Shown here piece after piece: positions 3,001-60,014 of a DNA stretch of 64,000 nt (within the stretch, counting starts at the first letter, position 1; every line of letters begins with the position of its first letter). Source of the DNA: a virus. Both the position numbers and the translations under genes were made by a program. The DNA lies in the IMG/VR virus record IMGVR_UViG_3300045988_112906, one strand, 5' to 3'. The notes beneath the pieces were generated by a model. It made no database searches. It was not told the origin of the DNA and saw nothing but the letters and a program-made list of their open reading frames with translations.

Positions 3001-6000
3001 AGGAAGCTACCAAGCAGAAGATTGAAGAAACTGTATCAGCCTTTGTTCAAGATTGGAGCTATCACGGCACATTTAACGGTCAGCCAATGAATGGCGAACA
3101 GGCTCTGTATGTACAGGATAGCAACGGAAGAACCCTTCTTGTGGGTTCGGGTGATGTCACATTCGACCAGACCAACGGCAGAGCTAAGGAAGGTGTCGGC
3201 GATATGCTCGTATGCTTCGACCCTAACACTAAGGAAATGGTCTATGTGAAAGCTGACGAGGTTACTTTCTTCCAGAATCAGCCTATCGACCAGTTTGCTG
3301 CTGAGTATCGCCAGAGATTGCAGATAAAGAACTCTGAGCCTTACAATCAGGCGGCACAGGAACAGGCGATGCAGGATGCAGCCAAGCCTCAGCAGGAGCA
3401 GGAAGCTCCGCAAGATAATACCACAAAATCGGAAGATAGTACCACAAAATCGGGTGAAAATGGCAAAGATGATACCACATCTGACACCACATCGGGCAAA
3501 AATAATACCACAAATGAGGACTTAGTACCACAAGAGCAGCCACAGCAGGAAAGCGAGGGTATGAAGCTCGAAGATGGCACTCCTGTTCCTTTTGATGCAA
3601 ACGGAGATCCTGATTTCATGAAAATGACTCCAGAGCAGGGGGCTGAGGTCTATAAGATGCTGTTTGAGGAAGATGCGCCAATGCAGATTGACAGCGACAT
3701 CAAGACCTTGGAGAAAGACTTGGAGAAGGTAAAGGCTTCCAAGTATGAAGGCGCTTCTGTTATGGAGAGAGCCGCAGCTCGTAAGAAGGTGAAGGAAGCT
3801 ATCGCACTGGCTGAGACTCAGGTGGAGAAAGCCAAGGCTATCAAGACTGCCATGGAAAAGAAGCCTGAGGCAGAGAATACCGGTGTAGGTACGGCTGAAA
3901 ACGCAGGACAATATGAAAAGGAACGTAAGCAGGGCTATCGTGAAGGTGAAGGCGGCGTTATCTATCATCGTCAGAAGCCAGAGGATGTTGGAGGTGTACG
4001 AGGCAAGGAAGTAACAGTAGCCTTCTCCCCTACCGAGAAAGTTGCAGGTCATGTTAAGCTGGTTGAGCTTGATTCTGTTCAGGCTAGCCACAACAACGGT
4101 CAGCTGAATCTTCTTCATTTCGGTCCAGACTGGCAGCCTAAGGACAGAAGCAGCCAGGCATCAAGAGTTGAGGCTGAGAAGATTGCAGGCAATATTGACC
4201 CAGAGCAGATTACTGGCAGCAACAATGCCTTCATAGGTTCGGCGCCGAGTGTGAACGAAAGACATGAAACCATCCAAGGCAACAACCGTGTGGATGCTTT
4301 GAAAGAAATGTATGCCTCTCACCCTGATCAGGCAGCCAAGTACAAGCAGTGGTTGATTGACCACGCAGCTGAGTTCGGCTTGAATGCTGAGGACATCAAG
4401 AAGATGAAGAAGCCTGTGATTGTAAACGAATTGCCTGTAGATGATGCTACTGCAAAGAAGCTGGGTCAGATGATGGCTAGCGGATTCGAGAGTGGCGGCA
4501 AGCGTATTCCTGAGGTTAGCGCTACCATCAACAAGCTTGGTGACAAGATGGAGAATCTGGCAAACGTTCTTCTTGCCGAGGGAACTCTTGGTGAGGATGC
4601 CAAGCTCAGCGACTTGATTAACCAGAACTCCAAGCGAGCTTTGGAATATCTCAACAAGAACGGATTCATAGACAATACCGAGTATGAGAATCTGGCTACC
4701 GATGTTGTTACCAGAAGACAATGGTTAGAGAATGTGTTGAAGGCTAGTCTGTTTGATGGAAACAGAAAGACAGAAGCCGCATTCAACCGATTGCCAGGCA
4801 ACGCTCAGAAGGCAGTATTGGCAACCTTCATGCGTGACAGAAACAGCAAGGCTGAGGATAGGATCAAGGAGAATATTCAGAAATCCTTTGAGGCTTACAA
4901 TGAATTGAACCAGATTGCAGGGTTCAAGAATGCCAAGAATATCGAGCAGGCAAGGGCTGCAATACAGGCGGAACTGTTAAATGGTTCTAATAATGTGTTT
5001 GGAGAGGCTTCAATTCGAGAAAAATACACTAACTTTGAACTCGAATTAGCAGCATTATACAAGGGTTTGAAAGACCAGAAGAGCCTGACAGGATTGTTTG
5101 GCGAGTTCTACAATGCCGTTCAAGGCAAGATTGGTAAGCAGCTGGATGCTTTCAGTCAGGAAAATGCTGAGCCTTTAGGTAAGGACGAGGCTATAGAAAA
5201 AGTCTTTGGAATCAATAACAAGCAAGATTATGACAGACGAAGAGAAACTGAATCTCCTTCTGAATCTGGAGGAGAAGATGGGGCTGAACCAGCAGGAGAC
5301 AGACCAGCAGAAGCAGGAGAAGGAAGAGTAAATTCTGAGGATGAAGACAAGCCAAATTCAGCAGGCTTTACTCCAAAGGAAATTAGAGATCATCAGGAAA
5401 AACTTGATAGAGCTAAGGAAAAATACGTAAAGGCTTTAAAAGAAGCCAAGAGTGAGAAGGAGATCAAAGCAGCGGAAGGTGAATTTGAGTTTGCGTATAA
5501 AGATCACCAGAATATGAACGGTGTTCTTGACGAGGCATCTGTGGCTGACATGTGGAATAAAGAACTTGAATCAGCAAAGGATTCCGTTAAGAAAGACTCA
5601 AAAGAACCGTCCGCAGATCCTATGGAAGGTTTGAAGCAGGCTGCTGACGCATTCCATGAAGAGCAGAAGCAGAAAGGTGAATTTGCCATGAACTTGAAGA
5701 TTGGCAAGGCTCGACAAGATTATGCTGCCGCCAAGGAAAGCGGTGATGCAGAGCGGACCACCACGGCTGCCAAGGAATTGAAGCATCTCTTAGACGACAG
5801 ATTGAAGCAAGAGGGTAAAGGTCTTGCTGAGAGACAGAAGATTATCGCCGAAGAGATAGGAAAGGCTGAGGCTGAGATAATCGACAAGCCTTGGGAACAG
5901 ATGGACTTGGAGGAACGAGAAGCTGTTTCTTCAAAGAACCCTCTCACGGAATCAGAGATTAACGAACTGACCTCTGAGGAAAATAAAGAATTGATACCTG

Positions 6001-7928
6001 CCGCACTCGCATATTTGCGTGGTGACAAGAGCAATATCATAAACGCAATATCTTACTTTAAAATTTGGAACGATGTTAGAAATAGACATGAGAATGTTTC
6101 CGACAATAGCGGAACAGAAAACGGAACACAGCTGGATGCTGCCGATACTACAGGCGGCGAAGGATTGGGACTGGGACGAGGACGAGAAAGCGGAAGACCT
6201 GATGGACCAGTGGATAGAGGAACAGGCAACGAAGCTGCACCCGGAGAGCGAAATGGCGGAGAGAGTAATCAGAACGACACTACTCTATCTGCTGGAGAAC
6301 AAGGCAATAAGCAAGGTGAAGGAAATTCATCCGGAGTGGGCGCAGTACCTGCCGGAGGTTCTGACACCAACGGAGGCGGTTCAGCTAGCGGAAATGGACA
6401 TGTATCTGGAGGAAGTGGACGTGAAAGCAGCAACAGACCTGCTGACACGAATGCAGGACGGAAGCCTACAGCCAAGCAAGGAACTACTTTCCCAGATAGC
6501 ACAGCAGAACGGCTAAAGCAGGAAAGAGCTGACTATGAGAAGAAGAAGAAAGACTTCTGGGCTAGATGGAAGAAGGCAGGGCAAGGCTATGCCAAGATTG
6601 CCCTGACTCCTTTCAAGAAGCTCAACCTTACACCAGAGCAAATAGAAATGCTGCCTGAGTTGGTAAAGATGCACCTTAACGGTGCTGTCTTGAAGATTAA
6701 GGAGGGTATCTACAAGTTCAACGAGTGGAAAGCTGCCATGCTTGCCGAGGAAGGCGAGGAGCTGAAAATGATAGGTCTTAGTGATGATGATATTGACAGA
6801 TTCATTGAAGACTATTGGAACACTCCTTACGAAATGGATGGTGAGACCCATACAATCAGGGAGTGGAGCAGCATCTATGGAAACCAGCATCTGAAAAAGA
6901 AGCTAAAAGAACCTCTTGAAGAGAAGTACAAGAGACAGATGGAAGCCGAACCTATCGAAGTGAAGGTGGGCGACATGAAGAACATCGAGGAGACTTTGCC
7001 TTATCTCTTGCCTCAGCAGCAGGAAGACGTATTGAAGGCTGAAACTCAGTTCTTCGGAAAGGAACATACAGACCGTGAACATGCTTACGGTAAGGGCTAT
7101 CTGTTTACCAATGGAACTGGTACTGGAAAAACATACACAGGTCTTGGCATTGCTAAGCGATTGGCTAAGCAGGGCAAAGGCAGAATACTCTTTATTACTC
7201 CTAGCCAGAAGAAGGTTTCCGACTGGATAAAGGACGGAAAGAATCTTGGTCTGGACATTAAGGATCTTGACTCCTGGGCAAAAATGCGTGGAACCACTGC
7301 TACTACAGAAAGTGGTGAAGGTATGGTAATTACTACATTTGCAAACTTTGGTCTGAATAAGAAACTTCTTGAAACAGAGTGGGATGCCGTTATCTATGAC
7401 GAGTGTCACCGTATCATGGAAAACAAGAAGGGTACTGAAACAGCCAGAAGTATGCAGCACTACATGGTTACCAATCGTGACGAGAATCATTGTTTCCAGA
7501 GATTGCAGAGCATCAACCCTGAGTATCAGAAAATGAATGGTGCTGCCGAAAAATTCGATGCGTTGCGACTAAAGGAAATCGAACGCATAAAGAAAGAGTA
7601 CAAGAATAGCCATCCAAGTGCTACAGACAGAGATGTGGATAATGCTACATTAAAGAGCCTTCCTAGAGATTTGAACAGCTTTGCCTCTGCCGACGGAATG
7701 ACTTTCCCTAAGCTTGGAAAAGCATATCAGGATTTCATCAAGGCAAGGGAAGCATATAATAAGGTAGAGCCTAAACTGAAAGAGCAGGCAAAGAGTTCGT
7801 GGAAACACACAAAAACCATATTCCTCTCCGCTACACCTTTCAATACTAGAGAGAATCTTGATTATGTTGAGGGCTATATCTTTAAGTATCCGGAAAAGGA
7901 CGAGAGAGGAATGGGTGGAAGAACCTAG
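6..7928 (+). CDS. Giant polyvalent (DarB-like) protein, part 1 (2640 aa): long unknown N-terminal region, S/T-rich and G-rich linkers, ParB/Srx-like segment, SNF2/DEAD helicase N-lobe. Ends at an in-frame TAG.
   Basis: Longest ORF, starting at ATG 6. Helicase motifs I GTGTGKT (7113), II DECH (7398) and III SAT (~7826). ParB-like IQGNNRVDAL (~4270). Same frame as 8040..14948. Confidence 0.85.
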   Translation: MADKVTSLYNALKADGLFKQARSLNDFKAKMAYQGYRSQIYKLARDKGANVGTFSQFTNALGYSSGSPKPRQSYGSYHTQQHKPAENKAMTTAQRAMQVAQEYQQTHQPTDYLHRPQNQMGRARRNAPGKASPFVQSLYEIDNAQKGPDYSVDYTSPKATQQVYQQNQQLRRQAAKTAGDHIVNDEYRRQSQPMIDNGTVGVMKPMGEIEQEMSDAADSLVASSGDFIKNSINNEYKQATLNAEKEIRSNDAMGNPFMGSSAGLISTQIANKYESPDKIMASLQNSIKKNIANILPRAREQAIRLGVSEDYYINNMVLPKMVEKAVGDFRETEVARRMPKNDLDYFVQEATSSNYLAKLGMMLLKTKSQRQFDEEALARTNEGMNPNYKPSTALRVGADVVGMVSDPIFGASAKAGGLVAGKLIGNSTKLAALMANGNLAQRLMAKGAQAVTSGGVTGFVFDSTGSVIQNYSTGEDTSLGNTLKVAAKGGATGAVNFATMSLAGIPLSEVGRSVGLTGIKGGSFWGNAGRATAKVGLESGKTYMEAMGMYLGGYVSGKLEGRTDANGKPIEFDLWNGTMESLPTAIGFRLQHAVEGLRGGRKNEKGEDMGWFGSTIANFKDFLTSDKAKESRFLMTEDERNMIFSSGAMNGLMPDGENIVSYAKRTKNKKVSYDDPYLETDASMIKNTYDQIMADSKVSWDAKAKFSAMVTGIMPSARPMMDYITFSNEDYVKDGLLRGKRKYVNEYSANGELLSKIPYDNKEDRDNVVYTHNIKRENLRLYNAMGLLARQDRNNYELQNDFFVENMKKPGADVNTLVTNMGNEGSDVFRDFSLFALNSEKGTVLKTIDSVAVRNGMKSEDLIKAMRKNPMKRTDFEQNVCVELRRALESKAFPYGKVHVEQSNLNGKDVAEDNNLGTEQPNGDAVKQELNGLRQAEEEVEVLMRDNDVFSQNFKKLQSQGLTNPQIYDWMVQQGGLTVEQLEPFAHYINANARVQGMQEATKQKIEETVSAFVQDWSYHGTFNGQPMNGEQALYVQDSNGRTLLVGSGDVTFDQTNGRAKEGVGDMLVCFDPNTKEMVYVKADEVTFFQNQPIDQFAAEYRQRLQIKNSEPYNQAAQEQAMQDAAKPQQEQEAPQDNTTKSEDSTTKSGENGKDDTTSDTTSGKNNTTNEDLVPQEQPQQESEGMKLEDGTPVPFDANGDPDFMKMTPEQGAEVYKMLFEEDAPMQIDSDIKTLEKDLEKVKASKYEGASVMERAAARKKVKEAIALAETQVEKAKAIKTAMEKKPEAENTGVGTAENAGQYEKERKQGYREGEGGVIYHRQKPEDVGGVRGKEVTVAFSPTEKVAGHVKLVELDSVQASHNNGQLNLLHFGPDWQPKDRSSQASRVEAEKIAGNIDPEQITGSNNAFIGSAPSVNERHETIQGNNRVDALKEMYASHPDQAAKYKQWLIDHAAEFGLNAEDIKKMKKPVIVNELPVDDATAKKLGQMMASGFESGGKRIPEVSATINKLGDKMENLANVLLAEGTLGEDAKLSDLINQNSKRALEYLNKNGFIDNTEYENLATDVVTRRQWLENVLKASLFDGNRKTEAAFNRLPGNAQKAVLATFMRDRNSKAEDRIKENIQKSFEAYNELNQIAGFKNAKNIEQARAAIQAELLNGSNNVFGEASIREKYTNFELELAALYKGLKDQKSLTGLFGEFYNAVQGKIGKQLDAFSQENAEPLGKDEAIEKVFGINNKQDYDRRRETESPSESGGEDGAEPAGDRPAEAGEGRVNSEDEDKPNSAGFTPKEIRDHQEKLDRAKEKYVKALKEAKSEKEIKAAEGEFEFAYKDHQNMNGVLDEASVADMWNKELESAKDSVKKDSKEPSADPMEGLKQAADAFHEEQKQKGEFAMNLKIGKARQDYAAAKESGDAERTTTAAKELKHLLDDRLKQEGKGLAERQKIIAEEIGKAEAEIIDKPWEQMDLEEREAVSSKNPLTESEINELTSEENKELIPAALAYLRGDKSNIINAISYFKIWNDVRNRHENVSDNSGTENGTQLDAADTTGGEGLGLGRGRESGRPDGPVDRGTGNEAAPGERNGGESNQNDTTLSAGEQGNKQGEGNSSGVGAVPAGGSDTNGGGSASGNGHVSGGSGRESSNRPADTNAGRKPTAKQGTTFPDSTAERLKQERADYEKKKKDFWARWKKAGQGYAKIALTPFKKLNLTPEQIEMLPELVKMHLNGAVLKIKEGIYKFNEWKAAMLAEEGEELKMIGLSDDDIDRFIEDYWNTPYEMDGETHTIREWSSIYGNQHLKKKLKEPLEEKYKRQMEAEPIEVKVGDMKNIEETLPYLLPQQQEDVLKAETQFFGKEHTDREHAYGKGYLFTNGTGTGKTYTGLGIAKRLAKQGKGRILFITPSQKKVSDWIKDGKNLGLDIKDLDSWAKMRGTTATTESGEGMVITTFANFGLNKKLLETEWDAVIYDECHRIMENKKGTETARSMQHYMVTNRDENHCFQRLQSINPEYQKMNGAAEKFDALRLKEIERIKKEYKNSHPSATDRDVDNATLKSLPRDLNSFASADGMTFPKLGKAYQDFIKAREAYNKVEPKLKEQAKSSWKHTKTIFLSATPFNTRENLDYVEGYIFKYPEKDERGMGGRT
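4040..4315 (+). other. ParB/sulfiredoxin-like domain segment inside the giant protein
   Basis: The sequence VELDSVQASHNNG...ETIQGNNRVDALKEMY resembles the ParB N-terminal pattern (I/V)xGxxRxxA. Judged by eye only. Confidence 0.4.
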
Positions 7929-8770
7929 TTCTACCTTAATCACTTTGGTGCAGCATACAAGTTCCGCTACCATCGTCTGGAGCAGAGTATCAGTAACCCG
8001 GATGCCGTAGCCAAGCAGGAGGTTGCCTTCTCTGATTACTTGCAGAACACACTTGGCACGATGAGCGGAAGAATTATTGATAGTCCTTACGACTATTCTA
8101 GAGACTTTCCTACCGTGGCTCCTGATCATGCCGAGAGTTTCAATAATGCGGTGCAGGACACATTGAAGACAAAGTATCTGCATGATGCGTACAGCAAGAC
8201 CATCGGTGATTACAACTATGGTAGTGCCCTTTTCGAGACTATGAAAGTGTCTGCTGCCATTGACAGAATCAAACAGCACTTGGATATGGGCAGAAAGGTT
8301 GTTATCTTCCATCGCCGTGTTGAGAGCAAGGAACCTTTGGAGGCTCCATTTGCTTACATGCTTAGAGTTGCCAACGAGCAGATCAAGATGATGAAACCAG
8401 GCAAGGAGCGTGACGAATACATCAAGGAATGCACCGAGTTCCGAAACAAGTATGCAGACCTTCTGGAATGGGAGAAGACTCTTGACTACAGTATGCCAAG
8501 AGAACAGATTGCCAAGGTGTTTGGCGAGAAGAATGTGTTGTTCTTCAGCGGAAAGGAAAGCAAGAAGGTGAAGGATAAGGCGGTTGATACATTTAATGAT
8601 GATGATAGCGGCAAGAATATCATCGTGATTCAGGAAGCTTCAGGAAAGGAAGGAATCTCACTTCATGATACCACAAGCAAGCACCAGCGTGTCTGCATCA
8701 CTCTCGCATTGCCTCAGAGTCCTATCACAGCCTTGCAGATTGAAGGTCGCATTTACCGTATCGGTAATAT
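7113..8770 (+). other. SNF2/DEAD-like helicase core (motifs I-VI) spanning the TAG at 7926
   Basis: Motifs I-III lie upstream of the TAG and motifs IV-VI lie downstream of it. Confidence 0.7.
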
Positions 8771-11700
8771 GAGCAATGCCATCTTTGAGTACCCTATCTT
8801 GGGTCTCAACTCTGAAATGATGCTTTTTGGAGAAAAGTTCAATAATCAGGTAAGTACTACCGAGAACCTTGCATTGGGCAGTCAGGCAAGAAACTTGCGT
8901 GACAGTTTCGCTAATGGTATCTTGGAACATAGCGGTATTGTACCGGTAGAGAACCAGGGTGTAGGCGGAAAGGAGTTTGACGCAGCAACACCAAGTGAGA
9001 ATGACCCATTCGATAATGCGGTGCTTGATTATTACAGCAATCAGAAACTTAATAAGAACAATCGTGAAGGTAGCGACTACTTCCCTACTCCTGAACCTCT
9101 TGGCTACAAGATGGTAGAATGGGCTGGCTTGGGTGAAGGTGACTCTGTATTGGAGCCTAGTGCCGGTCATGGAGCCATCGCAAGATACGTGCCTAAGACT
9201 AACGAAATGGTAAGCATCGAACCTAGTCAAAGTCTCTTCACGAAGTTGCAGTTGAAGGCTGGCGGTTTGGGTAGAAAGTTCTTAAACAATACGTTTGAGA
9301 ACTATGCGCTGAACAACAAGCACGATGTAATTGTAATGAATCCTCCTTTCGGCAAGGCTGGTGCATTGGCTATCCAGCATGTTGACAAGGCTTTCAAGCA
9401 CTTGGATGAAGGAGGTCGTATCGTAGCAATCATACCTAGAGGCTCAACAGACAAGAAGTTTGACAAGTGGTATAACGAGCAGAAGAACGTTGCCATGCGT
9501 GCTGAGGTAAATCTGCCTGATATCCTTTTCCAGCAGGCAGGAACCAGAGTTGCATGCCGAGTAGTTGTATTGGATAAGATTTCCGATGCTGCTTTGAGAA
9601 GCAAGGCAGGTTATCCTGAAAAGATTGATCTGAGCGGTCATTACGATAAGATTGAAGATTTCTTCAATGACCTCCGAGATATTGAAATGCCTGAGCGCAT
9701 CATTGATACGAATCTCAAAATGCAGAAGAAAGCCAAGGCTGCTGTCAAGGATATTATGGAAATCAAGGGCGTGAAAAACGTTTCTTATGGTAAGACTGGT
9801 ATTGATGTTTCTTTGACTGGTTCTTGGATGAACTACGGAATATCTTTCACTGGTAGTGACAAACCGAACTACTGGAGAGATAAGATGGCTAACTATTATA
9901 CCAAATATGATGAGCTTCAAAAGCTGGAGTATCAGGAAAACAAGCAGTCGGTGTTTGATGAGTTGAAGAAACTGTCTTGCAAGCTTGCCGGTATGACAGA
10001 GGATGAAATGCAGAGATATATCGCATCAAAGACCAACGGCAGCACCCACTTCCGTATGGAACTAGGCAAGACATTCTCAGACTCCAAGGAGAACTTTGAT
10101 GGAGTAAGAGACAGAGCAGTAGAGGAAAAAGGCATTGTCATGCCTAACCTGAATAAGGAAAGCGTTAATGTTGTGCCGGTGGAAAAACATAGCTTTGGAG
10201 TTACCGAGAATGAGATATTGACAAATGCAAAGGCATGGGCGAAAGATAATCTTGTAACTACAGGAAAATCGGAATTGCCTACAATGCGTGATGGAACGCC
10301 TTATACTATTAGTAAAAAGGCTGTTGAAAAATACTTGTCTGAGAGTGCTGTAAAGAAGAGCGATGGTCTTGATATTCATCTTTCCGTTCTTCCAAAGCTT
10401 ACAGATGTTATTCATGAAAGCATTGAAGCTGAGATTCATCCAGACTACAATAAGGACGAAGACGGAAATCGCAGCATCGAAAATGGGCACGGTGACAATA
10501 TTTTGGTCCATCGTTTGTATGGTGCTGTACAATTGGACGGTAAGACGTACCGAGTAAAAACAACCATGCAAGAGTTCAGAGGTGGTGAAGAAAACAAGCC
10601 TCATAGTTATGAGGTAACAAAAATAGAGTTGCTGGAAGGCTCCAAGACAGCGAACGAATCCGACAGTCTCCCTTTGAGCAGTGCAACCAACAACTCTGAA
10701 AATGAGTTACTTGGCTCCCCTGGAGAGCGAGAGAATCCCGACAAACCACATTCGGATGCACCAAGCAACTCTATTTCTGTTGCAAAGTTACTAAATGGAG
10801 TTGAGAAATCATACGATTCTGGGAAGAAATTGCTTGAAGAAAGCAAAAATTTAACAGATGAAGATACTTATTTTAGAAATGATAACGATTCACCCGTATC
10901 AATTTCTAAGGATGCTCCTGTTGTAGTAAAGCATGTGGCGAAGGTTGCAAAGGCTACTGGCGGCAAGGTGAAGATGTTGCAAAGTGTCGAAGAAGTTACC
11001 AATGCCGAGGCTAAGACAAGACTTGAAAAGGGTGAAAAGGTAGAAGGATGGTACGATGAACGCACAGGTGAAGTTGTGCTGTATATGCCAAACGTACATG
11101 ACAGCTACACAGCTGAGAAAACGGTATGGCATGAAATCGTAGGTCATAAAGGCATGCGTGAACTGTTCGGTAACGACAACTACGACAAATTCCTTGATGA
11201 TATTTACTTCAATCTTGATAAGCCGGAATACGCCGATCTTAAAAAGCTCGTCATGAAGGAACTACAGTACAATCCATTCGATTACAGAAATGCCATCGAA
11301 GAGGCTATTGCTAGAATGGCGGAAGAGGGACATGGCGAGCATGGTCTTTGGAATAACCTGAAAAACAAGGTAGCAAATATCTTTAGAGAAATCGGCTACC
11401 GTGTGGCGCCGAACACAAAGGACATTAAGTATCTCTTATGGCTCGCCAAGAATTACTCCAAGCATCCTGAGAGTGATGGTTACTTTGCTATCAGAAGAAA
11501 TGCCTTGCTGCATAAGTTAGAGAAAGATAATACGCCTAGCATCGTGGATAGAAACGGAATGTACTTTGATAATGATGGAAAGAACCATGATTATCTGCTA
11601 GACTTGAACCATAAGGACTTCGAGGAGGCTACCGATGGAAAAGTGCATTTCCGCACCTCCCCTATGACTGCATCTAAGATTGAGGAGTATAACCGCAGAC

Positions 11701-14700
11701 TCGGAACAAAACTCTATGCTTTCAAGGAAAGTTCCGTTGATAATATGCAGTCTTTGCAAGAGGCTATGGAAATAATCTCTGGTGAAAAGAATGCGTGGAC
11801 GGATATTCCTTCTGCCTTCAATCCATTGCAGGCGCAGAACCGCATTGATAGTATCGTACAGCAAAAGGCAGAAGAGTATGACGATAAATACACGAAGCCT
11901 CTTGATGATTCTTTCAAGAAAGTTGTATCTACCATGAGCGGTAGCGATAAGGATGAGCAGTTGAGAAACGCACAGATCTATATGATTACCAAGCATGGTT
12001 TGGAGCGTAACCGTGTATTCTTTGTTCGTGACGCAATTCGGGATATGATGAATGGCGATGTTACGAAAGCAAAGACATTGATGAAGGACTGGAACGACAA
12101 GCAGAAGGATTTGGCTGACGAACTAGAGAAAGGCAACATCAGATTTGATGAGTACCTGGAGCAAATGGACGAATGGATTCGTAGCAACGTGGACGTTAAC
12201 TTTGTTGCTGACGAACACGATTATTCTGGATTCCATGGTATGCAAAATATAGCCAAGACCTCTGATCCATACGACGACAAGCTTGCCATTGACAACGTGA
12301 TGAGTGCAGAAAGCCAGATGGGTAGCGATTTGGCAAAAGACTTCTGGATAAAGAAGAAGGCTGCAACAGATTACGTTATCGACCAAGAATACTACAACGG
12401 CTTTATTGATCAATCTGATAGAGATTATCTAAAGGGAATGTTCCAATGGTATGTGCCTCTTAGAAAGTTTGATGATACAACCGCAGAAGATGTGTATGGT
12501 TATATCGGAGAAAAGGGAGATCCTTCCAACTTTGTTGGTCCTGTATTGGCAAATGCAAAGGGAAGAAGCAGTCTGAGCGACATTAATGTTATGGCTCAAA
12601 TATCCGCCATGGCAAAGTCTTCGCTTATCAATGGTGGAAAGAATGTAGTAAAGCAGTACTTTGCCAGATTTGTTTCTGCCTATGAAACTGGTAATACAAA
12701 AGATAAAATCTTTGTTGAAGTGAATCCTTGGCTAGAGAAGCACGTGGTAGATGGTAAAGAAGTTTGGGAAGAGGTTACACCTCAAATTCCGGAGAACGCC
12801 ACACAGCAGCAAATAAGCGATATACTGCAAAACTTTGAGGACAGCATGCAGGCGAAGAAAGCAACTGGTGATGCAAAGCTTTCACACAGAAAGCCTAACA
12901 TTGGCTTTAAATTCCAGCGTGCCAAGGATAAGTCTGAACATATCATTGATGTGTATATCGCAGGAAGGAAAAGAAGCTTTGTCTGTCAGGGTAACCCAAG
13001 AGCAGCCCAAGCACTCAATGGTCTTTTGAAAGATTCAGGAACCAGAAATGCGGTAACGCAATTTGATGCGAAGGTTACGAGAAAAATTGCCCAATTCAAT
13101 ACATCGCTGAATCCAGACTTTATGATGTCTAATATGTTGCGTGACTTAACTTTTGCATCAGCCAATGTTACCAAGGAAGGATTTAGCTACACCAAGGACT
13201 TCTTGAAAGAATATGCAGGAAACATGATTTCTATCAAGAACGGAAAAGGTAGTGGAAACTATCTTACTATGTTCCGCAAGTATAGAGACGGTAAGCTTGA
13301 TACAAATAATGAACGAGAAAGAATGTTCAAAGAGTTTATGGACAATGGCGGTCAGACTGGTTTTGTTCAAATCAAGAAACTGGAAAGCCTGATTGAGGAA
13401 TATGATAACCTGATCAAGAAAGGAAGTAAGGATGCAGACGGATGGTTTGTCAAGAAAATCAAGGAAGGTGGAACCTTTATTGAGACTGCCAACGAGATTA
13501 TTGAAAACGTAGCTCGCTACTCTACTTACTGTACTTCACGAAAGCACGGAAGAAGCGTAGGACGAAGTATCTATGATGCCAAGGAGGTTTCAACAAACTT
13601 CAACCGGCACGGTTCTGGAGATGCCATCAAGACCTTGAAAACTTCAAATGATAGCAATATTGATAAGAAATTCCGTGGTACTCTCGGTTTCTTCAATAGC
13701 TGGATGAAGAATCATACGCAGTTCTATAACGCCGGCGTGCAAGGTGCAAATCTGTTTTTCAAGAACTATAAGAGTGCATGGAAGACTTCTGCCGTTTCAT
13801 TCGGTATGTTACCTTTAGGACTCGGTATTGCTCAGGCGTTAATCAATCAATACCTGATTAATAATGAGGACGAGAAGGACAGAAAGGGCGTGAAGGATCC
13901 ATACGCAGAGTTACCAGAATGGAAACGCAGAAATAATATCTGTATCTATACTGGGCACGGAAACTTTAAGACTATTCCTATTGCCATCGAGTTAAGAGCG
14001 TTCTTCGGGTTGGGCGATATTGCGGCTGGCTATGTTGTGAATGATAAGTTGAAGAGTAGTACGCCTATCGGTTATGATATTTTGGGACAGATGGCACAAT
14101 TAGTACCAGCCTCTGATTTCCTTGGACACCATTCGCCAAGCAACAACATTAAGGAACTTGGAGAGGATGCAATACTTGCAGTAACTCCAACAACCATATC
14201 TCCTGCTATGGAACTTGCCTTCAATCGAGACTGGACAGGCAGACCTTTCTATCGTGATTATGACTATCTTGATAAGGCTCCAAGATGGAAGAGGGCATAC
14301 GATAACACCAATAGTATTTATATGAGTATTAATAAATGGGCTAACCAAGGCACAAATGGTATTGATAGTTCTAATGCAGACATGAAGGGAAATGAAACTC
14401 TTGATTATCTTACTGCACCTTACGCTTGGCAACATTTGATAGATAGTTACACCGGTGGCATGGGTTCAACTATTGGCAGAACTTACAAAACGTTAGAAGC
14501 TGTTGGTAAGGGCGTTGTATCTGGAGCAAAGAACAAAGAAGGATTCAGCAAGGGCTTCTCTGATGAATTTGAAAAGTTTGATAAAAATCAAATCCCTCTT
14601 TACAGGGTGTTTAACTATACTCCTAAAGAGGGGCAAGACATGCAGCGAACTAGATCGAAATGGTATAACTATTCCGACGAGTTGAAGCAGACGGAATATA

Positions 14701-14948
14701 ATATTAAGCAGTTGAAGACTAACACGCCTGATGTTTTGAAGAACATGGAGAACAATGCCAAGAAGTTCAACTTTACTCATAGCAAAGAAGGAAAGGCGTA
14801 TAATATATGGAATGCAGCAGATAATTATATCCAGAAGAAGAAAAAAATCTTAAAAAGAGTATCTGATCCGGAAGTAATCAAGTCAATTAACGAAGACATC
14901 AATCGAAAGATGCAAGAAGCGGTGAATGATTTGGATAAGCTAAATTAA
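8040..14948 (+). CDS. Giant polyvalent protein, part 2 (2302 aa as tracked): helicase C-lobe, N6-adenine DNA methyltransferase, zincin-like motif, long C-terminal region.
   Basis: Same frame as 6..7928. The frame is open from 7929, and the first in-frame ATG is at 8061. Motifs: VVIFHRR, QEASGKEGISLHD, QIEGRIYRIGN (8736), VLEPSAGHGAI (9147), NPPF (9339), HEIVGH (11130). Confidence 0.85.
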   Translation: MQNTLGTMSGRIIDSPYDYSRDFPTVAPDHAESFNNAVQDTLKTKYLHDAYSKTIGDYNYGSALFETMKVSAAIDRIKQHLDMGRKVVIFHRRVESKEPLEAPFAYMLRVANEQIKMMKPGKERDEYIKECTEFRNKYADLLEWEKTLDYSMPREQIAKVFGEKNVLFFSGKESKKVKDKAVDTFNDDDSGKNIIVIQEASGKEGISLHDTTSKHQRVCITLALPQSPITALQIEGRIYRIGNMSNAIFEYPILGLNSEMMLFGEKFNNQVSTTENLALGSQARNLRDSFANGILEHSGIVPVENQGVGGKEFDAATPSENDPFDNAVLDYYSNQKLNKNNREGSDYFPTPEPLGYKMVEWAGLGEGDSVLEPSAGHGAIARYVPKTNEMVSIEPSQSLFTKLQLKAGGLGRKFLNNTFENYALNNKHDVIVMNPPFGKAGALAIQHVDKAFKHLDEGGRIVAIIPRGSTDKKFDKWYNEQKNVAMRAEVNLPDILFQQAGTRVACRVVVLDKISDAALRSKAGYPEKIDLSGHYDKIEDFFNDLRDIEMPERIIDTNLKMQKKAKAAVKDIMEIKGVKNVSYGKTGIDVSLTGSWMNYGISFTGSDKPNYWRDKMANYYTKYDELQKLEYQENKQSVFDELKKLSCKLAGMTEDEMQRYIASKTNGSTHFRMELGKTFSDSKENFDGVRDRAVEEKGIVMPNLNKESVNVVPVEKHSFGVTENEILTNAKAWAKDNLVTTGKSELPTMRDGTPYTISKKAVEKYLSESAVKKSDGLDIHLSVLPKLTDVIHESIEAEIHPDYNKDEDGNRSIENGHGDNILVHRLYGAVQLDGKTYRVKTTMQEFRGGEENKPHSYEVTKIELLEGSKTANESDSLPLSSATNNSENELLGSPGERENPDKPHSDAPSNSISVAKLLNGVEKSYDSGKKLLEESKNLTDEDTYFRNDNDSPVSISKDAPVVVKHVAKVAKATGGKVKMLQSVEEVTNAEAKTRLEKGEKVEGWYDERTGEVVLYMPNVHDSYTAEKTVWHEIVGHKGMRELFGNDNYDKFLDDIYFNLDKPEYADLKKLVMKELQYNPFDYRNAIEEAIARMAEEGHGEHGLWNNLKNKVANIFREIGYRVAPNTKDIKYLLWLAKNYSKHPESDGYFAIRRNALLHKLEKDNTPSIVDRNGMYFDNDGKNHDYLLDLNHKDFEEATDGKVHFRTSPMTASKIEEYNRRLGTKLYAFKESSVDNMQSLQEAMEIISGEKNAWTDIPSAFNPLQAQNRIDSIVQQKAEEYDDKYTKPLDDSFKKVVSTMSGSDKDEQLRNAQIYMITKHGLERNRVFFVRDAIRDMMNGDVTKAKTLMKDWNDKQKDLADELEKGNIRFDEYLEQMDEWIRSNVDVNFVADEHDYSGFHGMQNIAKTSDPYDDKLAIDNVMSAESQMGSDLAKDFWIKKKAATDYVIDQEYYNGFIDQSDRDYLKGMFQWYVPLRKFDDTTAEDVYGYIGEKGDPSNFVGPVLANAKGRSSLSDINVMAQISAMAKSSLINGGKNVVKQYFARFVSAYETGNTKDKIFVEVNPWLEKHVVDGKEVWEEVTPQIPENATQQQISDILQNFEDSMQAKKATGDAKLSHRKPNIGFKFQRAKDKSEHIIDVYIAGRKRSFVCQGNPRAAQALNGLLKDSGTRNAVTQFDAKVTRKIAQFNTSLNPDFMMSNMLRDLTFASANVTKEGFSYTKDFLKEYAGNMISIKNGKGSGNYLTMFRKYRDGKLDTNNERERMFKEFMDNGGQTGFVQIKKLESLIEEYDNLIKKGSKDADGWFVKKIKEGGTFIETANEIIENVARYSTYCTSRKHGRSVGRSIYDAKEVSTNFNRHGSGDAIKTLKTSNDSNIDKKFRGTLGFFNSWMKNHTQFYNAGVQGANLFFKNYKSAWKTSAVSFGMLPLGLGIAQALINQYLINNEDEKDRKGVKDPYAELPEWKRRNNICIYTGHGNFKTIPIAIELRAFFGLGDIAAGYVVNDKLKSSTPIGYDILGQMAQLVPASDFLGHHSPSNNIKELGEDAILAVTPTTISPAMELAFNRDWTGRPFYRDYDYLDKAPRWKRAYDNTNSIYMSINKWANQGTNGIDSSNADMKGNETLDYLTAPYAWQHLIDSYTGGMGSTIGRTYKTLEAVGKGVVSGAKNKEGFSKGFSDEFEKFDKNQIPLYRVFNYTPKEGQDMQRTRSKWYNYSDELKQTEYNIKQLKTNTPDVLKNMENNAKKFNFTHSKEGKAYNIWNAADNYIQKKKKILKRVSDPEVIKSINEDINRKMQEAVNDLDKLN
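9147..9353 (+). other. N6-adenine methyltransferase catalytic region (SAM-binding motif I and NPPF motif IV)
   Basis: LEPSAGHGAI together with VIVMNPPFGKAG. Confidence 0.75.
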
Positions 14949-52841: not shown

Positions 52842-53567
52842 TCAAATAAGATTGATGATTTTTCCACTCTTGGCATAGTACGTTGGTACGCCTATTACCT
52901 GTTGGAACTTGTTTACTGCCAGGACTGGATTGAGGTGTCGGGAGGAACCGTGAATGAGGATGATTTGGTGGGCAGACTGCTCTGCCTTGCAATCCTGCAA
53001 CCACGAAACGGCATGTTCGAGACTCATGTGGGATAAGCGAACACGATCAGCCTGACTTCGTGGAGTCTTGCCTTCTGCTACTGCCTTGTCTAGGAGTTCA
53101 TCCGAATAGTTACACTCTGTAAGATAGGTATTGCAACCTTGGATAACGAAATGCAGATTGTAGCAATCCGTGGCAAAGAAGATGGTTCCGATTTCCTTAT
53201 GATGAATCAGATAGCCGTAATTTGGTGCATCCTCATCATGCTTTACAAAAAAAGGTGTGGCACTAAATTCACCAAAACAATGAGTACACTCGCAACCCAA
53301 AGTCCTTACGCAATTAGGGAAATGTTGCGATACGTTGGCGTTGGAATAAACTACAATTCCAGCCTTATCATATTCCTTGATATACTTGGCATGGTCTGAA
53401 TGCCGATGAGAACACAAGCATGCCTCTACCTTACTCGTCTTGTAACCGATAGCTCTCTTCACTTCTTTCAAGGGTATGCCTGCTTCAATCAGCAGGATTT
53501 CTCCCGAATCTGATTGAAGGGCATACGAATTGCCTTTTGATGATGAACCTATAATGATTAGCTTCAT
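52842..53567 (-). CDS. Metallo-beta-lactamase-fold nuclease/hydrolase
   Basis: HRHSDH (the HxHxDH motif). Adjacent to recT. Confidence 0.7.
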   Translation of the reverse strand: MKLIIIGSSSKGNSYALQSDSGEILLIEAGIPLKEVKRAIGYKTSKVEACLCSHRHSDHAKYIKEYDKAGIVVYSNANVSQHFPNCVRTLGCECTHCFGEFSATPFFVKHDEDAPNYGYLIHHKEIGTIFFATDCYNLHFVIQGCNTYLTECNYSDELLDKAVAEGKTPRSQADRVRLSHMSLEHAVSWLQDCKAEQSAHQIILIHGSSRHLNPVLAVNKFQQVIGVPTYYAKSGKIINLI

Positions 53568-58173: not shown

Positions 58174-58365
58174 TTATAGTGTATTGTACTTACCCTCTTC
58201 ACGTCCCATGTCTGCTGCGAGATTCTTGATACGTGAGTTGAGCATATTAATCTTTCTGACTTTCAGCTCAAAAATCTCCAGCGGACACCACGGATTCCTT
58301 TCGAGCTGTTTGTATATATCGTCCACTCGCTCTTGATAGGACCGAGTCGTGAATAATTGAAGCAT
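58174..58365 (-). CDS. Hypothetical small protein
   Basis: 63-aa ORF. Its start lies in ATAGCGTATG. Confidence 0.5.
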   Translation of the reverse strand: MLQLFTTRSYQERVDDIYKQLERNPWCPLEIFELKVRKINMLNSRIKNLAADMGREEGKYNTL

Positions 58366-58514
58366 ACGCTATTGTTTTTAAGTTTGAAAATCCTGCCTAT
58401 CCTCACGGACTGGCAGGGATCATTATATGATAAAATCTCAAATTCCGCCCAATATGTTGCCGCTGCAACAGGGGGCATTGCTTTTTAATTCAGATAAATA
58501 TGAAAAATTAAAAG

Positions 58515-58624
58515 TTGCAGAAGTGGGACTCGAACCCACGACCAGGTCGCACGGTTGATAAGAATATGTTAAGGGTTTACTCATTATGTTACGTGCCTGC
58601 TCTAACCAACTGAGCTATTCTGCA
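58515..58624 (-). tRNA. tRNA-like gene with canonical acceptor, D and T arms but a 38-40-nt AU-rich sequence in place of the 7-nt anticodon loop. Isotype not assignable.
   Basis: Sense strand: TGCAGAA-TA-GCTC-AGTTGGTTA-GAGC-A-GGCAC-[40 nt]-GTGCG-ACCTGGTC-GTGGG-TTCGAGT-CCCAC-TTCTGCA-A. Confidence 0.75.
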
Positions 58625-59003
58625 ATATAGCGGCATCGTGCGCTACCACGAATTTAAGAGCCATGCTCACCGCTCGGGCTTGCGAAGGATTTTTGTAATA
58701 CTAACAAGCAATCAGTTATTATTTTGCTTTCATCCTCGCTTACCCTATATAAAGACTTAATATCCTTCAGCTTAATTTTTCCAATAAGTCAATGATCGTA
58801 TGCCCACCGAAGGGGCAATGGGATAGCTTTGCGATTGCCATTAAAATGAAAGGTGTTGGTAGAATAGCCGCCAAAGCTATTTCCTTCTGGTTCGTGGCAT
58901 CTTGTTTCGACCCGCAAATAATGAAATATCCGCCACTTGACATATACCGCTCTTTTGTCACCTTACATCACATTTTTATAATAACAAAACACAAAAACTT
59001 GTG

Positions 59004-59103: not shown

Positions 59104-59240
59104 GGTTGATACTCCTATTATCACGAACGAGAGTACCTTGATGTTATTTATTTTAGTTATACACATTCGATTAAGATTTTCTTCAAGCAACCTCCACCCT
59201 GCTCACGCAGGATGGGGGCTTGGTTTTAAATCACAACTTT

Positions 59241-59639: not shown

Positions 59640-60014
59640 ATGGAAGGATTAAGAGACAGAATCAATGTGATAAGAGACCATTACAGACTGTCTAACAGAG
59701 GGTTTGCAGAAGCAATCGGTGCAAAACCAGCTGCTACGAACAACTATTTGAATGGTACAAAGGAGCCGTCATTAGAGTTTGTGGATAGGATTCTGTCCAC
59801 ATACATAGACGTGTCGGCAGATTGGCTTCTACGAGGCAAGGGAACCATGTTCTATGAGGAAGATAAGCCAACCGATGAAGCGCTCTTGAAGGAACTTGCA
59901 GAAGCAAAGGTCAAGCTGCTCGTACAAGAGGGCATCACCAAGGAGCTTCGTGATATGCTCCTTGAGAAGAATAACGGAAAGATAGCCGAAGACCGCAAGA
60001 GTCTTGTAGGCTGA
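59640..60014 (+). CDS. XRE-family HTH repressor (CI-like)
   Basis: LSNRGFAEAIGAKPAATNNYLNGTKEPSLEFVDRIL...ADWLLRGKG. Confidence 0.7.
   Translation: MEGLRDRINVIRDHYRLSNRGFAEAIGAKPAATNNYLNGTKEPSLEFVDRILSTYIDVSADWLLRGKGTMFYEEDKPTDEALLKELAEAKVKLLVQEGITKELRDMLLEKNNGKIAEDRKSLVG

What the first reader, a model, noticed from the sequence alone, without database searches (positions are those of the whole stretch)
58515..58624. tRNA gene with perfect acceptor, D and T arms but a 38-40-nt AU-rich insert where the anticodon loop should be
Read on the minus strand, the sequence is TGCAGAA / TA / GCTC-AGTTGGTTA-GAGC / A / GGCAC - GTAACATAATGAGTAAACCCTTAACATATTCTTATCAACC - GTGCG / ACCTGGTC / GTGGG-TTCGAGT-CCCAC / TTCTGCA / A. 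Every arm except the anticodon loop is textbook, including a U1-A72 pair. The insert has no convincing internal pairing and contains a 7-nt direct repeat (TAACATA twice). It is far too short for a bacterial group I intron. By hand I find no 5-7-5 anticodon arm and no loop with U33 plus CTA, TTA or TCA, so I cannot call it a suppressor. Four possibilities remain: an unusual short intron needing an unknown splicing activity; a decoy or sponge for anticodon nucleases or tRNA-modifying enzymes; a tRNA-like processing or priming element; or a decayed tRNA.
Basis: seen in the sequence. Interest (0 to 1): 0.65.

Follow-up and report, generated by a model that had tools for sequence, protein, structure and literature searches.

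The report
tRNA-shaped phage RNA carrying a conserved insert
A gut Bacteroidales phage encodes an RNA folded like a tRNA whose anticodon loop is replaced by a 38-base module that is better conserved than the tRNA body, so it is most likely an undescribed non-decoding tRNA-like RNA, not an intron-bearing or decayed tRNA.

Summary
Window 58515-58624 (minus strand) matches the Rfam tRNA model end to end (47 bits against a cut-off of 29), with 51 nt where 15 are expected. ARAGORN finds it only with its intron option, and the anticodon it then reports depends on the option used.

The same gene sits at the same syntenic position in about 66 IMG/VR contigs and about 50 distinct gut-metagenome sequence contexts from related phages. 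Their nearest isolates are Bacteroides phages.

At least seven scaffold types have different acceptor, anticodon-position and T stems. These stems covary: 12 of 24 pairs show changes on both sides, reached by 0 of 500 shuffles.

The 28-nt insert core is 86-100% identical between types, against 32-90% for the scaffold. It comprises a small hairpin presenting GUAAANCCUUA and a single-stranded tail with invariant CUUAUCAA.

No single excision restores a canonical 7-nt anticodon loop across the family. No bulge-helix-bulge motif is conserved, and no splicing or RNA-repair gene was found. The commonest scaffold type has lost tRNA invariants.

Best reading: a tRNA-scaffolded, non-decoding early RNA whose insert is the functional surface. 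Its partner is unknown.

The parts
58515..58624 (-). Whole tRNA-shaped RNA gene (110 nt, no encoded CCA, discriminator A at 58515)
   Evidence: Rfam tRNA 47 bits over the full model. Family model R1 gives 79.7 bits.
58618..58624 (-). Acceptor stem, 5' strand UGCAGAA
   Evidence: Pairs perfectly with 58516-58522. All 7 acceptor pairs show changes on both sides across the family.
58516..58522 (-). Acceptor stem, 3' strand UUCUGCA
   Evidence: Other scaffold types have CCUCGCA/UGCGAGG, CGCAACA/UGUUGCG, UCCCGAG/CUCGGGA, UCUCGCU/AGCGAGA and CUUUGCA/UGCAAAG.
58599..58615 (-). D arm GCUC-AGUUGGUUA-GAGC
   Evidence: The X type has GUGU/GCAC instead.
58592..58596 (-). Stem at the anticodon position, 5' strand GCACG
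   Evidence: Pairs with 58549-58553. Replaced by CCCGA/UCGGG, UUCGUG/CACGAA, UCCGUG/CACGGA or GUACAU/AUGUAC in other types.
58583..58591 (-). 5' linker of the insert, UAACAUAAU. Sequence varies; length is 8-11 nt.
   Evidence: Segment table of 37 distinct family members.
58566..58582 (-). Insert hairpin GAGU-AAACCCUUA-ACAU. The loop AAANCCUUA is conserved.
   Evidence: 96% of cells paired across 51 sequences, varying only GC<->GU and UA<->UG. Also predicted by RNAalifold alone.
58554..58565 (-). Single-stranded 3' tail AUUCUUAUCAAC. CUUAUCAA is invariant in every family member seen.
   Evidence: The number of bases between CAA and the stem varies from 1 to 4.
58549..58553 (-). Stem at the anticodon position, 3' strand CGUGC
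58540..58548 (-). Junction GACCUGGUC. It holds a likely extra pair G27:C43, which is A:U in the V, L098, L154 and L171 types, after a 3-nt bulge (GAC/AAC), followed by a variable loop.
   Evidence: Direct reading. Not tested statistically.
58523..58539 (-). T arm GUGGG-UUCGAGU-CCCAC
   Evidence: Other types have GUUGG/CCAAC or GUAGG/CCUAC. The X type mostly has a UCCGAAU loop.
58632..58671 (-). Context: a 40-nt block conserved in all scaffold types, ending 7 nt upstream of the gene. Sequence GGUGAGCAUGGCUCUUAAAUUCGUGGUAGCGCACGAUGCC, with two mini-hairpins (GAGC/GCUC and CRUG/CAYG) that covary.
   Evidence: Whether it is a promoter, a nut-like site or a leader is not resolved.
58392..58417 (-). 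Context: a hairpin CCUGCC-AGUCCGUGAGGAUA-GGCAGG about 100 nt downstream. It is one copy of a repeated hairpin with a conserved 14-nt loop.
   Evidence: A second copy lies at 59108-59137 (-).

Best explanation
The locus encodes a non-decoding, tRNA-shaped small RNA. It lies in the leftward early operon of a Bacteroidales phage, downstream of a divergent cI-like HTH gene and upstream of genes for a 63-aa protein, NinG, dUTPase, an SbcC-like protein and RecT.

**Shown**
- It folds as a cloverleaf. The acceptor, T and anticodon-position stems are kept by compensatory substitutions. The D stem was checked only by inspection, because the window-type rows stayed misaligned in A3.
- The anticodon loop is replaced by a 37-42-nt module (38 nt here). 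The module has a variable 8-11-nt linker, a 4-bp hairpin presenting GUAAANCCUUA, and an unpaired tail with invariant CUUAUCAA.
- The module is far more conserved than the scaffold.

**Inferred**
- The tRNA body serves as a folding, processing and stability scaffold. Host RNase P and 3'-end enzymes would excise it from the early transcript, much as engineered tRNA scaffolds and viral tRNA-like RNAs are handled.
- The invariant loop and tail, held at the tip where the anticodon would be, form a sequence-specific binding surface for a trans-acting partner. That partner could be a host or phage protein, or a conserved RNA.
- The RNA is not expected to be charged or to read codons.

The identity of the partner is not established.
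For: - **tRNA shape.** Rfam tRNA 47 bits.
- **Distribution.** The family occurs in 66 IMG/VR loci, about 50 distinct gut-metagenome contexts and 4 MAG contigs. It is always at the same syntenic position, while flanking proteins are only 50-88% identical.
- **Covariation on 51 distinct sequences.** 89.2% of cells are paired against 79.9% in shuffles. 12 of 24 pairs have changes on both sides (0 of 500 shuffles reach this; slid controls give 1-8). All 7 acceptor pairs covary. RNAalifold alone recovers the acceptor, anticodon-position stem, insert hairpin and T stem.
- **Insert versus scaffold.** Mean core identity is 0.90 (0.86-1.00), against 0.62 (0.32-0.90) for the scaffold.
- **No consistent anticodon loop.** ARAGORN -i gives UCA with A33, or ACA if the intron is forced to 37/38. 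The spacer between CUUAUCAA and the stem varies from 1 to 4 nt.
- **Scaffold drift.** The commonest type (X) has C55 in the T loop and mismatches at the base of the acceptor. Rfam does not call it a tRNA even at E <= 1.
- **No conserved charging identity.** Acceptor sequences differ completely between types.
- **No recoding.** The standard genetic code fits the genome.
Against: - No expression, processing or binding data exist, so the partner and the benefit to the phage are unknown.
- No conserved complementary target was found in the phage genome.
- The scaffold in this window is a textbook tRNA body. One relative (L154) even encodes ACCA, and A73 is kept in nearly all types. That is more constraint than a mere stability scaffold obviously needs.
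- Phages of Bacteroidota are known to carry unexplained tRNA introns (PMC6784885), so an unknown splicing route cannot be excluded.
Confidence: 0.58

Rival explanations
1. It is a real tRNA gene with a short intron of about 31 nt. An unknown host or phage activity removes the intron to give a decoding tRNA, as proposed for the enigmatic introns of Lak megaphage tRNAs.
For: - The scaffold in the window is a perfect tRNA body.
- ARAGORN -i accepts a 31-nt intron.
- Insert length is tightly kept at 37-38 nt.
- Lak megaphages of Prevotella carry unexplained tRNA introns (PMC6784885).
- Other phage contigs hold tRNA-Ile(UAU)-like genes with an insert of about 39 nt after CUUAUA (L009, L015, L017).
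Against: - No single excision gives a loop with U33 and a purine at 37 that holds in all types. The calls change between UCA with A33, CAA and ACA as the CAA-to-stem spacer varies.
- The insert is more conserved than the supposed exons.
- No BHB motif lies at a homologous position.
- The insert is far too short for a group I intron, and Rfam gives no intron hit.
- The X-type scaffold has lost tRNA invariants.
- No endonuclease, ligase or kinase-phosphatase was found among about 47 ORFs scanned.
Confidence: 0.12
2. It acts in cis as part of the early leader RNA. One possibility is a tRNA-like RNase P cleavage signal that separates or times the early transcript. Another is a component of a processive-antitermination (nut-like) region. 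In either case it would not be a free trans-acting RNA.
For: - A 40-nt block conserved in all types ends 7 nt upstream. It contains GGCUCUUAAAUU followed by a covarying hairpin. From memory this resembles lambda nutL boxA plus boxB.
- A GUUCUUUGACA motif about 150 nt upstream in relatives resembles rrn boxA (memory).
- A repeated hairpin with a conserved loop flanks the region.
- The gene lies in a roughly 700-nt stretch of the early operon in which the only candidate ORFs are short and doubtful: a 64-aa GTG ORF (58767-58961) and a 71-aa ORF (58263-58478).
Against: - The boxA and boxB resemblances were not tested against any model.
- A pure cleavage signal would not need an invariant 28-nt insert.
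- The upstream boxA-like motif is degenerate in this window (GAUCAUUGACUUA).
Confidence: 0.15
3. It is a decoy or sponge for a host factor that handles tRNA, such as an anticodon nuclease of a defence system, a tRNA-modifying enzyme or a synthetase. The tRNA body would provide recognition and the insert would block or trap the enzyme. This is a special case of the best explanation.
For: - The tRNA shape is kept by selection.
- The tail contains anticodon-loop-like strings (UUCUUAU, CUUAUCA), and its complement equals U33-G39 of a typical tRNA-Ile(GAU) arm. That arm sequence is recalled from memory and was not checked against the host.
- Related phages carry further tRNA-like genes with non-canonical loops (AGGAGGU, ACAAAGGU).
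Against: - No defence system or target has been identified.
- The anticodon-like strings are not closed by a stem.
- UUCUUAU is not invariant: L224, L225 and L226 have AUCUUAU, UACUUAU and GUCUUAU.
- X-type scaffolds deviate from tRNA features that such enzymes usually read.
Confidence: 0.1
4. It is a decaying tRNA pseudogene, or a chance tRNA-like sequence.
For: Standard ARAGORN does not call it, and there is no canonical anticodon loop.
Against: Purifying selection is clear. Seven or more scaffold types have compensated stems, and the insert core is nearly invariant across phages whose proteins are 50-60% identical.
Confidence: 0.02
5. It is an amber suppressor that reads the in-frame TAG at 7926-7928, which interrupts the giant polyvalent protein gene.
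For: A single TAG splits a Sno-type helicase between ORF 6-7928 (ResIII) and ORF 8040-14948 (Helicase_C).
Against: - The insert contains no CUA.
- Close relatives that carry the same RNA family have CAG at that codon.
- The TAG allele was not found in IMG/VR.
- There is no genome-wide recoding.
Confidence: 0.02

Closest known systems
Canonical bacterial and phage tRNA (Rfam RF00005)
   Same: Acceptor stem, D arm, T arm, a 5-bp stem at the anticodon position, discriminator A73, overall cloverleaf, and location among early phage genes.
   Different: - A 38-nt structured module replaces the 7-nt anticodon loop.
- No U33/anticodon/R37 register is conserved.
- Acceptor identity is not conserved.
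- The commonest relative has C55 and mismatches in the acceptor/T stack, and fails the Rfam model.
Intron-containing tRNAs: archaeal/eukaryal BHB introns, bacterial group I introns in anticodon loops, and the 'enigmatic introns' of Lak megaphage tRNAs (PMC6784885)
   Same: Extra sequence between the two strands of the anticodon stem. The Lak case is also in phages of Bacteroidota.
   Different: - Lak introns, and the L009-type inserts, follow a recognisable anticodon at position 37/38. This insert does not.
- There is no BHB motif.
- The insert is ten times too short for a group I intron.
- The insert is more conserved than the flanking 'exons'.
tRNA-scaffolded or tRNA-like processed RNAs: engineered tRNA scaffolds (Ponchon and Dardel), gammaherpesvirus-68 tRNA-miRNA chimeras, mascRNA, and the RNase P-processed immunity RNAs C4 of P1/P7 and CI of P4 (all from memory)
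   Same: A tRNA-like fold is used as a processing and stability module for a functional RNA segment. The engineered scaffolds place the cargo exactly where the anticodon loop would be. C4 and CI are early or immunity-region phage RNAs.
   Different: - No sequence or model relationship was found (no Rfam hit other than tRNA).
- Processing by RNase P or RNase Z was not tested.
- C4 and CI have complementary targets in cis. None was found here.
tmRNA
   Same: A tRNA-like domain joined to a non-tRNA functional segment inserted where the anticodon arm would be.
   Different: - ARAGORN finds no tmRNA.
- There is no G3:U70 pair and no tag reading frame.
- It is 110 nt long, against more than 250 nt for tmRNA.
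- A full D arm is present.

Membership tests
Canonical decoding tRNA | Cloverleaf with a 7-bp acceptor stem, D arm and T arm | tested here: met
   Rfam RF00005 at 47 bits over model positions 1-71. Stems covary.
Canonical decoding tRNA | 7-nt anticodon loop (U33, anticodon 34-36, purine 37) closed by the 5-bp anticodon stem | tested here: not met
   38 nt lie between GCACG and CGUGC. Standard ARAGORN gives no call.
Canonical decoding tRNA | T-loop U54-U55-C56 and D-loop GG kept across orthologues | tested here: inconclusive
   Met in the window (UUCGAGU; GG in the D loop). The commonest orthologue type has UCCGAAU and is not detected by Rfam at E <= 1.
Canonical decoding tRNA | Aminoacylation by a defined synthetase | not testable with these tools
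   The only indirect evidence is that acceptor sequences differ completely between scaffold types, while A73 is mostly kept.
tRNA with archaeal/eukaryal-type intron | Bulge-helix-bulge motif at the exon-intron boundaries | tested here: not met
   A relaxed BHB scan of six scaffold types gives only scattered hits. They lie at non-homologous positions and clash with the cloverleaf. The MFE fold shows a 4x4 internal loop, not a BHB.
tRNA with archaeal/eukaryal-type intron | Excision restores a canonical anticodon loop | tested here: not met
   ARAGORN -i gives UCA with A33, or ACA. The implied anticodon changes between relatives because the spacer after CUUAUCAA varies.
tRNA with archaeal/eukaryal-type intron | Splicing endonuclease and ligase available | tested here: inconclusive
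   None found among about 47 window ORFs scanned with Pfam or PHROGs. Small ORFs and host genes were not covered.
tRNA with bacterial group I intron | Intron of about 200 nt or more with a P1-P9 catalytic core in the anticodon loop | tested here: not met
   The insert is 38 nt. Rfam gives no group I intron hit at gathering or at E <= 10.
Suppressor tRNA / recoding phage | Anticodon CUA, UUA or UCA in a canonical loop, together with in-frame stops across genes | tested here: not met
   - No canonical loop exists.
- The standard code covers 58 of 64 kb with ORFs of at least 100 aa.
- The one in-frame TAG is CAG in relatives.
tmRNA | tRNA-Ala-like domain with G3:U70, a tag reading frame and pseudoknots | tested here: not met
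   ARAGORN finds no tmRNA. Position 3:70 is C-G. No conserved reading frame exists, because one relative differs by a single-base insertion.
Lak-megaphage-type intron tRNA (PMC6784885) | Insert directly after a recognisable anticodon, at 37/38 | tested here: not met
   The Lak tRNA-Tyr reads CUGUAU followed by the intron. Here the bases after the stem are UAACAU, AACUGU or GUUCAG, depending on type.
tRNA-scaffolded / RNase P-processed viral small RNA (functional class) | Excision from a longer transcript by RNase P and 3' tRNA-processing enzymes, followed by stable accumulation | not testable with these tools
   Inferred only, from the conserved acceptor/T minihelix and the position inside an operon.

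The most novel reading that the evidence does not exclude
A natural tRNA-scaffold display RNA. A family of gut Bacteroidales phages would use a drifting tRNA body to have the host tRNA machinery produce and stabilise a 38-nt invariant module. That module would capture a conserved host component early in infection. Candidates are a transcription-elongation (Nus-type) factor, a tRNA anticodon loop, or a defence nuclease. This would be a new class of phage regulatory or anti-host RNA.
Probability: 0.35. Interest if true: 0.8.

Novelty: new variant of a known kind. Interest (0 to 1): 0.66.

Why it matters
If confirmed, this would be a widespread and abundant RNA family of human-gut phages that is currently annotated as nothing, or mis-annotated as a pseudo-tRNA or intron-tRNA.

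It would show that phages have evolved the same trick that RNA engineers use: putting a cargo in the anticodon position of a tRNA. It would also give a handle on an unknown host-phage interaction in Bacteroidales.

There is a practical point too. tRNA finders run with intron options will assign such genes arbitrary anticodons (here 'SeC-UCA'). That could mislead analyses of phage recoding.

Tried and rejected
1. **Close relatives in deposited phages.** Searched INPHARED with megablast and blastn: none found.
2. **Splicing or RNA-repair genes.** The 730-aa metallophosphoesterase has no Pnkp-like match. The Lactamase_B_2 protein next to RecT is probably a DNA nuclease, and nothing else was relevant.
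3. **Antisense targets.** Searched the window for the complement of the tail, a tail-plus-loop pattern, and RNAduplex hits in flanks of six relatives. Nothing was conserved. An AGGAUUUA site downstream in two types does not covary.
4. **Alternative genetic codes.** No gain.
5. **Amber suppression of the TAG at 7926.** Rejected, because relatives have CAG.
6. **A short peptide ORF starting at AUG in the insert.** Not conserved: a 1-nt indel occurs in L011 and L016, and the X type has no AUG.
7. **Mini-tmRNA reading of GUA-AAY-CCU-UAR.** No Ala identity, and the codons are not kept (L076, L079).
8. **Opposite-strand reading.** UUGAUAA would be an Ile-GAU loop, but it has the same variable-spacer problem and no Rfam hit on that strand.
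9. **Synteny in the Bacteroides phage BS-TP2 NinG region.** Not syntenic and has no tRNA.
10. **Literature searches.** Found only the Lak megaphage report of unexplained tRNA introns.

Full report
**What is there.** Read on the minus strand, window 58624-58515 is:

UGCAGAA UA GCUC AGUUGGUUA GAGC AG GCACG [UAACAUAAU GAGU AAACCCUUA ACAU AUUCUUAUCAAC] CGUGC GACCUGGUC GUGGG UUCGAGU CCCAC UUCUGCA A.

- Rfam's tRNA model matches it end to end at 47 bits (gathering score 29; E = 6.8e-07 over the 64-kb window). It is the only Rfam hit in the window. Infernal places 51 nt where the model has 15.
- Standard ARAGORN reports no tRNA.
- With its intron option ARAGORN accepts a 31-nt intron, but the anticodon depends on the setting. 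It gives UCA with A at position 33 (labelled SeC), or ACA when the intron is forced to 37/38.

**Genome context.** The window is a tailed phage.
- It has an SU10-like capsid protein and adaptor, a P22-like portal, RecT, an SbcC-like ATPase, dUTPase, NinG/Rap, a replication-initiation-like protein, Bro-N and a giant polyvalent protein.
- The nearest isolates by portal are Bacteroides phages, at 30-36% amino-acid identity. One related contig is binned with Segatella copri.
- There is no nucleotide match in GenBank phages.
- The RNA gene lies in a leftward operon. In transcription order this runs: a divergent 124-aa HTH gene (59640-60014, +), a 69-aa ORF, a roughly 700-nt stretch holding only short, doubtful ORFs that contains the RNA gene, a 63-aa ORF, NinG, dUTPase, SbcC-like and RecT.

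**A family, not a one-off.** Pattern scans recovered the same element in three collections:
- 66 IMG/VR loci;
- about 50 distinct contexts in human-gut metagenome contigs;
- 4 MAG contigs.

Three more divergent members were found through a conserved upstream block. In every locus that is long enough, the element occupies the same syntenic position. The flanking proteins are only about 50-88% identical to those of the window.

The scaffold comes in at least seven types.

| Type | Acceptor stem | Other features |
|---|---|---|
| Window, V | UGCAGAA/UUCUGCA | Perfect tRNA body |
| L098 | CCUCGCA/UGCGAGG | T stem GUUGG/CCAAC |
| L154 | CGCAACA/UGUUGCG | Encoded ACCA |
| L171 | UCCCGAG/CUCGGGA | T stem GUAGG/CCUAC |
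| L076 | UCUCGCU/AGCGAGA | Anticodon-position stem UUCGUG/CACGAA; reduced D arm |
| L226 | CUUUGCA/UGCAAAG | Anticodon-position stem UCCGUG/CACGGA |
| X (commonest) | CCACC../..GGUGG | Stem CCCGA/UCGGG; D stem GUGU/GCAC; T loop mostly UCCGAAU |

Sources.

**Structure is under selection.** A covariance model built from 25 members aligned 51 distinct members.
- On that alignment 89.2% of cells form standard pairs, against 79.9% in shuffles.
- 12 of 24 pairs show changes on both sides. None of 500 shuffles reaches this, and alignments with the 3' partner slid by 1-3 columns give 1-8.
- All seven acceptor pairs covary. This alignment was fitted to the model, which favours the structure.
- RNAalifold on its own still recovers the acceptor, the anticodon-position stem, the insert hairpin and the T stem.
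- The D-stem counts for the window-type sequences are depressed by a residual 2-column misalignment. By inspection GCUC/GAGC is perfect.

**The insert is the most conserved part.** Segmenting 37 distinct sequences gives four pieces in order:
1. a 5' linker of 8-11 nt with variable sequence;
2. a 4-bp hairpin (GNGU/ANNY) that varies only between GC/GU and UA/UG and is 96% paired;
3. a 9-nt loop, AAANCCUUA;
4. a tail (A/G)UUCUUAUCAA followed by 1-4 variable bases.

The loop total is 37-38 nt (42 in one member). Between representatives of seven scaffold types, the 28-nt core is 86-100% identical (mean 0.90). The rest of the molecule is 32-90% identical (mean 0.62). The three most divergent members narrow the invariant tail to CUUAUCAA.

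**Why not an intron.**
- Because the spacer between CUUAUCAA and the 3' strand of the stem varies in length, no single excision produces a 7-nt loop with U33 and a purine at 37 in all types.
- Strings that look like anticodon loops (UUCUUAU, CUUAUCA) are not flanked by pairing partners. UUCUUAU is not invariant.
- A relaxed bulge-helix-bulge scan finds nothing at a homologous position.
- The insert is an order of magnitude too short for a group I intron.
- No endonuclease, RNA ligase or kinase-phosphatase appeared among about 47 ORFs scanned.
- In the X type the 'exons' have drifted away from tRNA invariants. Rfam no longer recognises them even at E <= 1, yet the insert is untouched.
- Real, unexplained tRNA introns have been reported in Prevotella megaphages (PMC6784885). 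Those follow a recognisable anticodon at 37/38, unlike this case.

**Why not a suppressor or a pseudogene.**
- The standard code fits the genome.
- A single in-frame TAG (7926-7928) does split a Sno-type helicase between the two giant ORFs. Relatives that carry the same RNA family have CAG there.
- The TAG allele was not found elsewhere, and the insert has no CUA.
- Decay is excluded by the covariation and by the conservation of the insert.

**Most likely mechanism.**

*Shown:* a cloverleaf-shaped RNA gene with a conserved module at the anticodon position, kept by selection in an early operon.

*Inferred:*
- The tRNA body lets host tRNA-processing enzymes cut the RNA out of the early transcript and makes it stable.
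- The invariant hairpin loop and single-stranded tail are the working surface for a trans-acting partner.
- The RNA is neither charged nor used in decoding, because acceptor identity is not conserved and there is no anticodon loop.

A ten-base invariant single strand is more typical of RNA-RNA recognition than of protein binding. No complementary site is conserved in the phage, so a host RNA or a protein remains equally possible.

**Leads recalled from memory, not tested.**
- The tail's complement, UGAUAAG, equals positions 33-39 of a typical tRNA-Ile(GAU).
- The block 7 nt upstream (58632-58671, conserved in all types, with two covarying mini-hairpins) contains GGCUCUUAAAUU plus a hairpin. 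This is reminiscent of lambda nutL boxA-boxB.
- Relatives have GUUCUUUGACA about 150 nt upstream, reminiscent of rrn boxA.

These leads keep alive a cis-acting role in antitermination or processing of the early transcript.

**Comparison with the known.**
- *What it works like:* engineered tRNA scaffolds and viral tRNA-like processed RNAs, namely the herpesvirus tRNA-miRNA chimeras and the RNase P-processed C4 and CI immunity RNAs of P1/P7 and P4.
- *What it is a member of:* only the broad tRNA fold. It fails the defining feature of a decoding tRNA (the anticodon loop), of BHB and group I intron tRNAs, of tmRNA and of suppressor tRNAs.
- No Rfam family other than tRNA matches. No paper found in the library describes it.

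**Verdict.** The finding is a real, selected and undescribed tRNA-shaped phage RNA family. I rate it a new variant of a known kind (tRNA-like non-coding RNAs) and moderately to highly interesting. Its molecular partner and its benefit to the phage remain unknown.

Noticed in passing
window 58392-58417 (-) and 59108-59137 (-); also L001 5465-5493, and L076 upstream of 10631 with two copies downstream of 10076: A repeated hairpin with covarying stems and a conserved 14-nt loop (N-GUYCGUGA-G/U-RAUA). In relatives it sits 5 nt upstream of other tRNA-like genes. In the window it lies about 25 nt before the 63-aa ORF. It may be a promoter, a terminator or an antiterminator-binding element.
   Followed up: partly
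window 58632-58671 (-): A 40-nt block, nearly invariant in all scaffold types, ends 7 nt upstream of the RNA gene. GGCUCUUAAAUU is followed by a covarying CRUG-GUAGCG-CAYG hairpin, and a covarying GAGC-AUG-GCUC mini-hairpin lies before it. From memory this resembles a lambda nutL boxA-boxB site.
   Followed up: partly
window about 58775-58800 (-); relatives such as L036 and L001 about 150 nt upstream of the gene: A conserved GUUCUUUGACAUAUUGGAAAA motif, degenerate in the window. It resembles the 5' end of the Rfam DUF2693 RNA (weak hit, 15.6 bits) and, from memory, a Gram-positive-type rrn boxA.
   Followed up: partly
window 7926-7928 (+): A single in-frame TAG splits a roughly 4,981-aa polyvalent protein inside its Sno-type helicase. 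ResIII/DEAD is in ORF 6-7928 and Helicase_C in ORF 8040-14948. Six relatives, 92-97% identical over the 261-aa query around the junction, have CAG (Gln) at this codon. The TAG is either a nonsense polymorphism, an error or a read-through site.
   Followed up: yes
L001 5498-5572, L002 1236-1311, L060 8656-8731, L072 131-206: V-type relatives carry a second 75-76-nt tRNA-like gene with encoded CCA. Its anticodon loop is non-canonical: AGGAGGU (Shine-Dalgarno-like, no U33) or the 8-nt ACAAAGGU.
   Followed up: partly
L076 10476-10631 (-): Another tRNA-shaped gene (Rfam 40.6 bits) with a 95-nt insertion between the D and T arms. The insertion contains an anticodon-arm-like hairpin (loop GUCUUCA) and strings similar to the module (GUUCUUAAUUAU, AAAUCC).
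   Followed up: partly
L004, L007, L008, L012, L020, L021 (jumbo-phage contigs of 37-420 kb): tRNA-Ile(UAU) genes (loop CUUAUAC) with a long extra arm whose loop reads CUGAUAA. That is a second, Ile-GAU-like anticodon loop in the variable-arm position.
   Followed up: no
L009, L015, L017; L005: Other phage tRNA genes with inserts of about 39-45 nt in the anticodon region. The L009 type has CUUAUA followed by the insert, which looks like a 37/38 intron in tRNA-Ile(UAU). The L005 insert contains a hairpin with loop UUCUAA.
   Followed up: no
L032 241-316, L037 14439-14514, L049 12963-13038 and others: Some X-type relatives also encode a fully canonical tRNA-Arg(UCU) about 2.8 kb from the tRNA-like gene. 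These phages therefore do carry ordinary tRNAs alongside it.
   Followed up: no
window 52842-53567 (-): A metallo-beta-lactamase-fold protein (Lactamase_B_2, phrog_392) lies directly after RecT. It is probably the recombination exonuclease, but the fold is shared with RNase Z.
   Followed up: no
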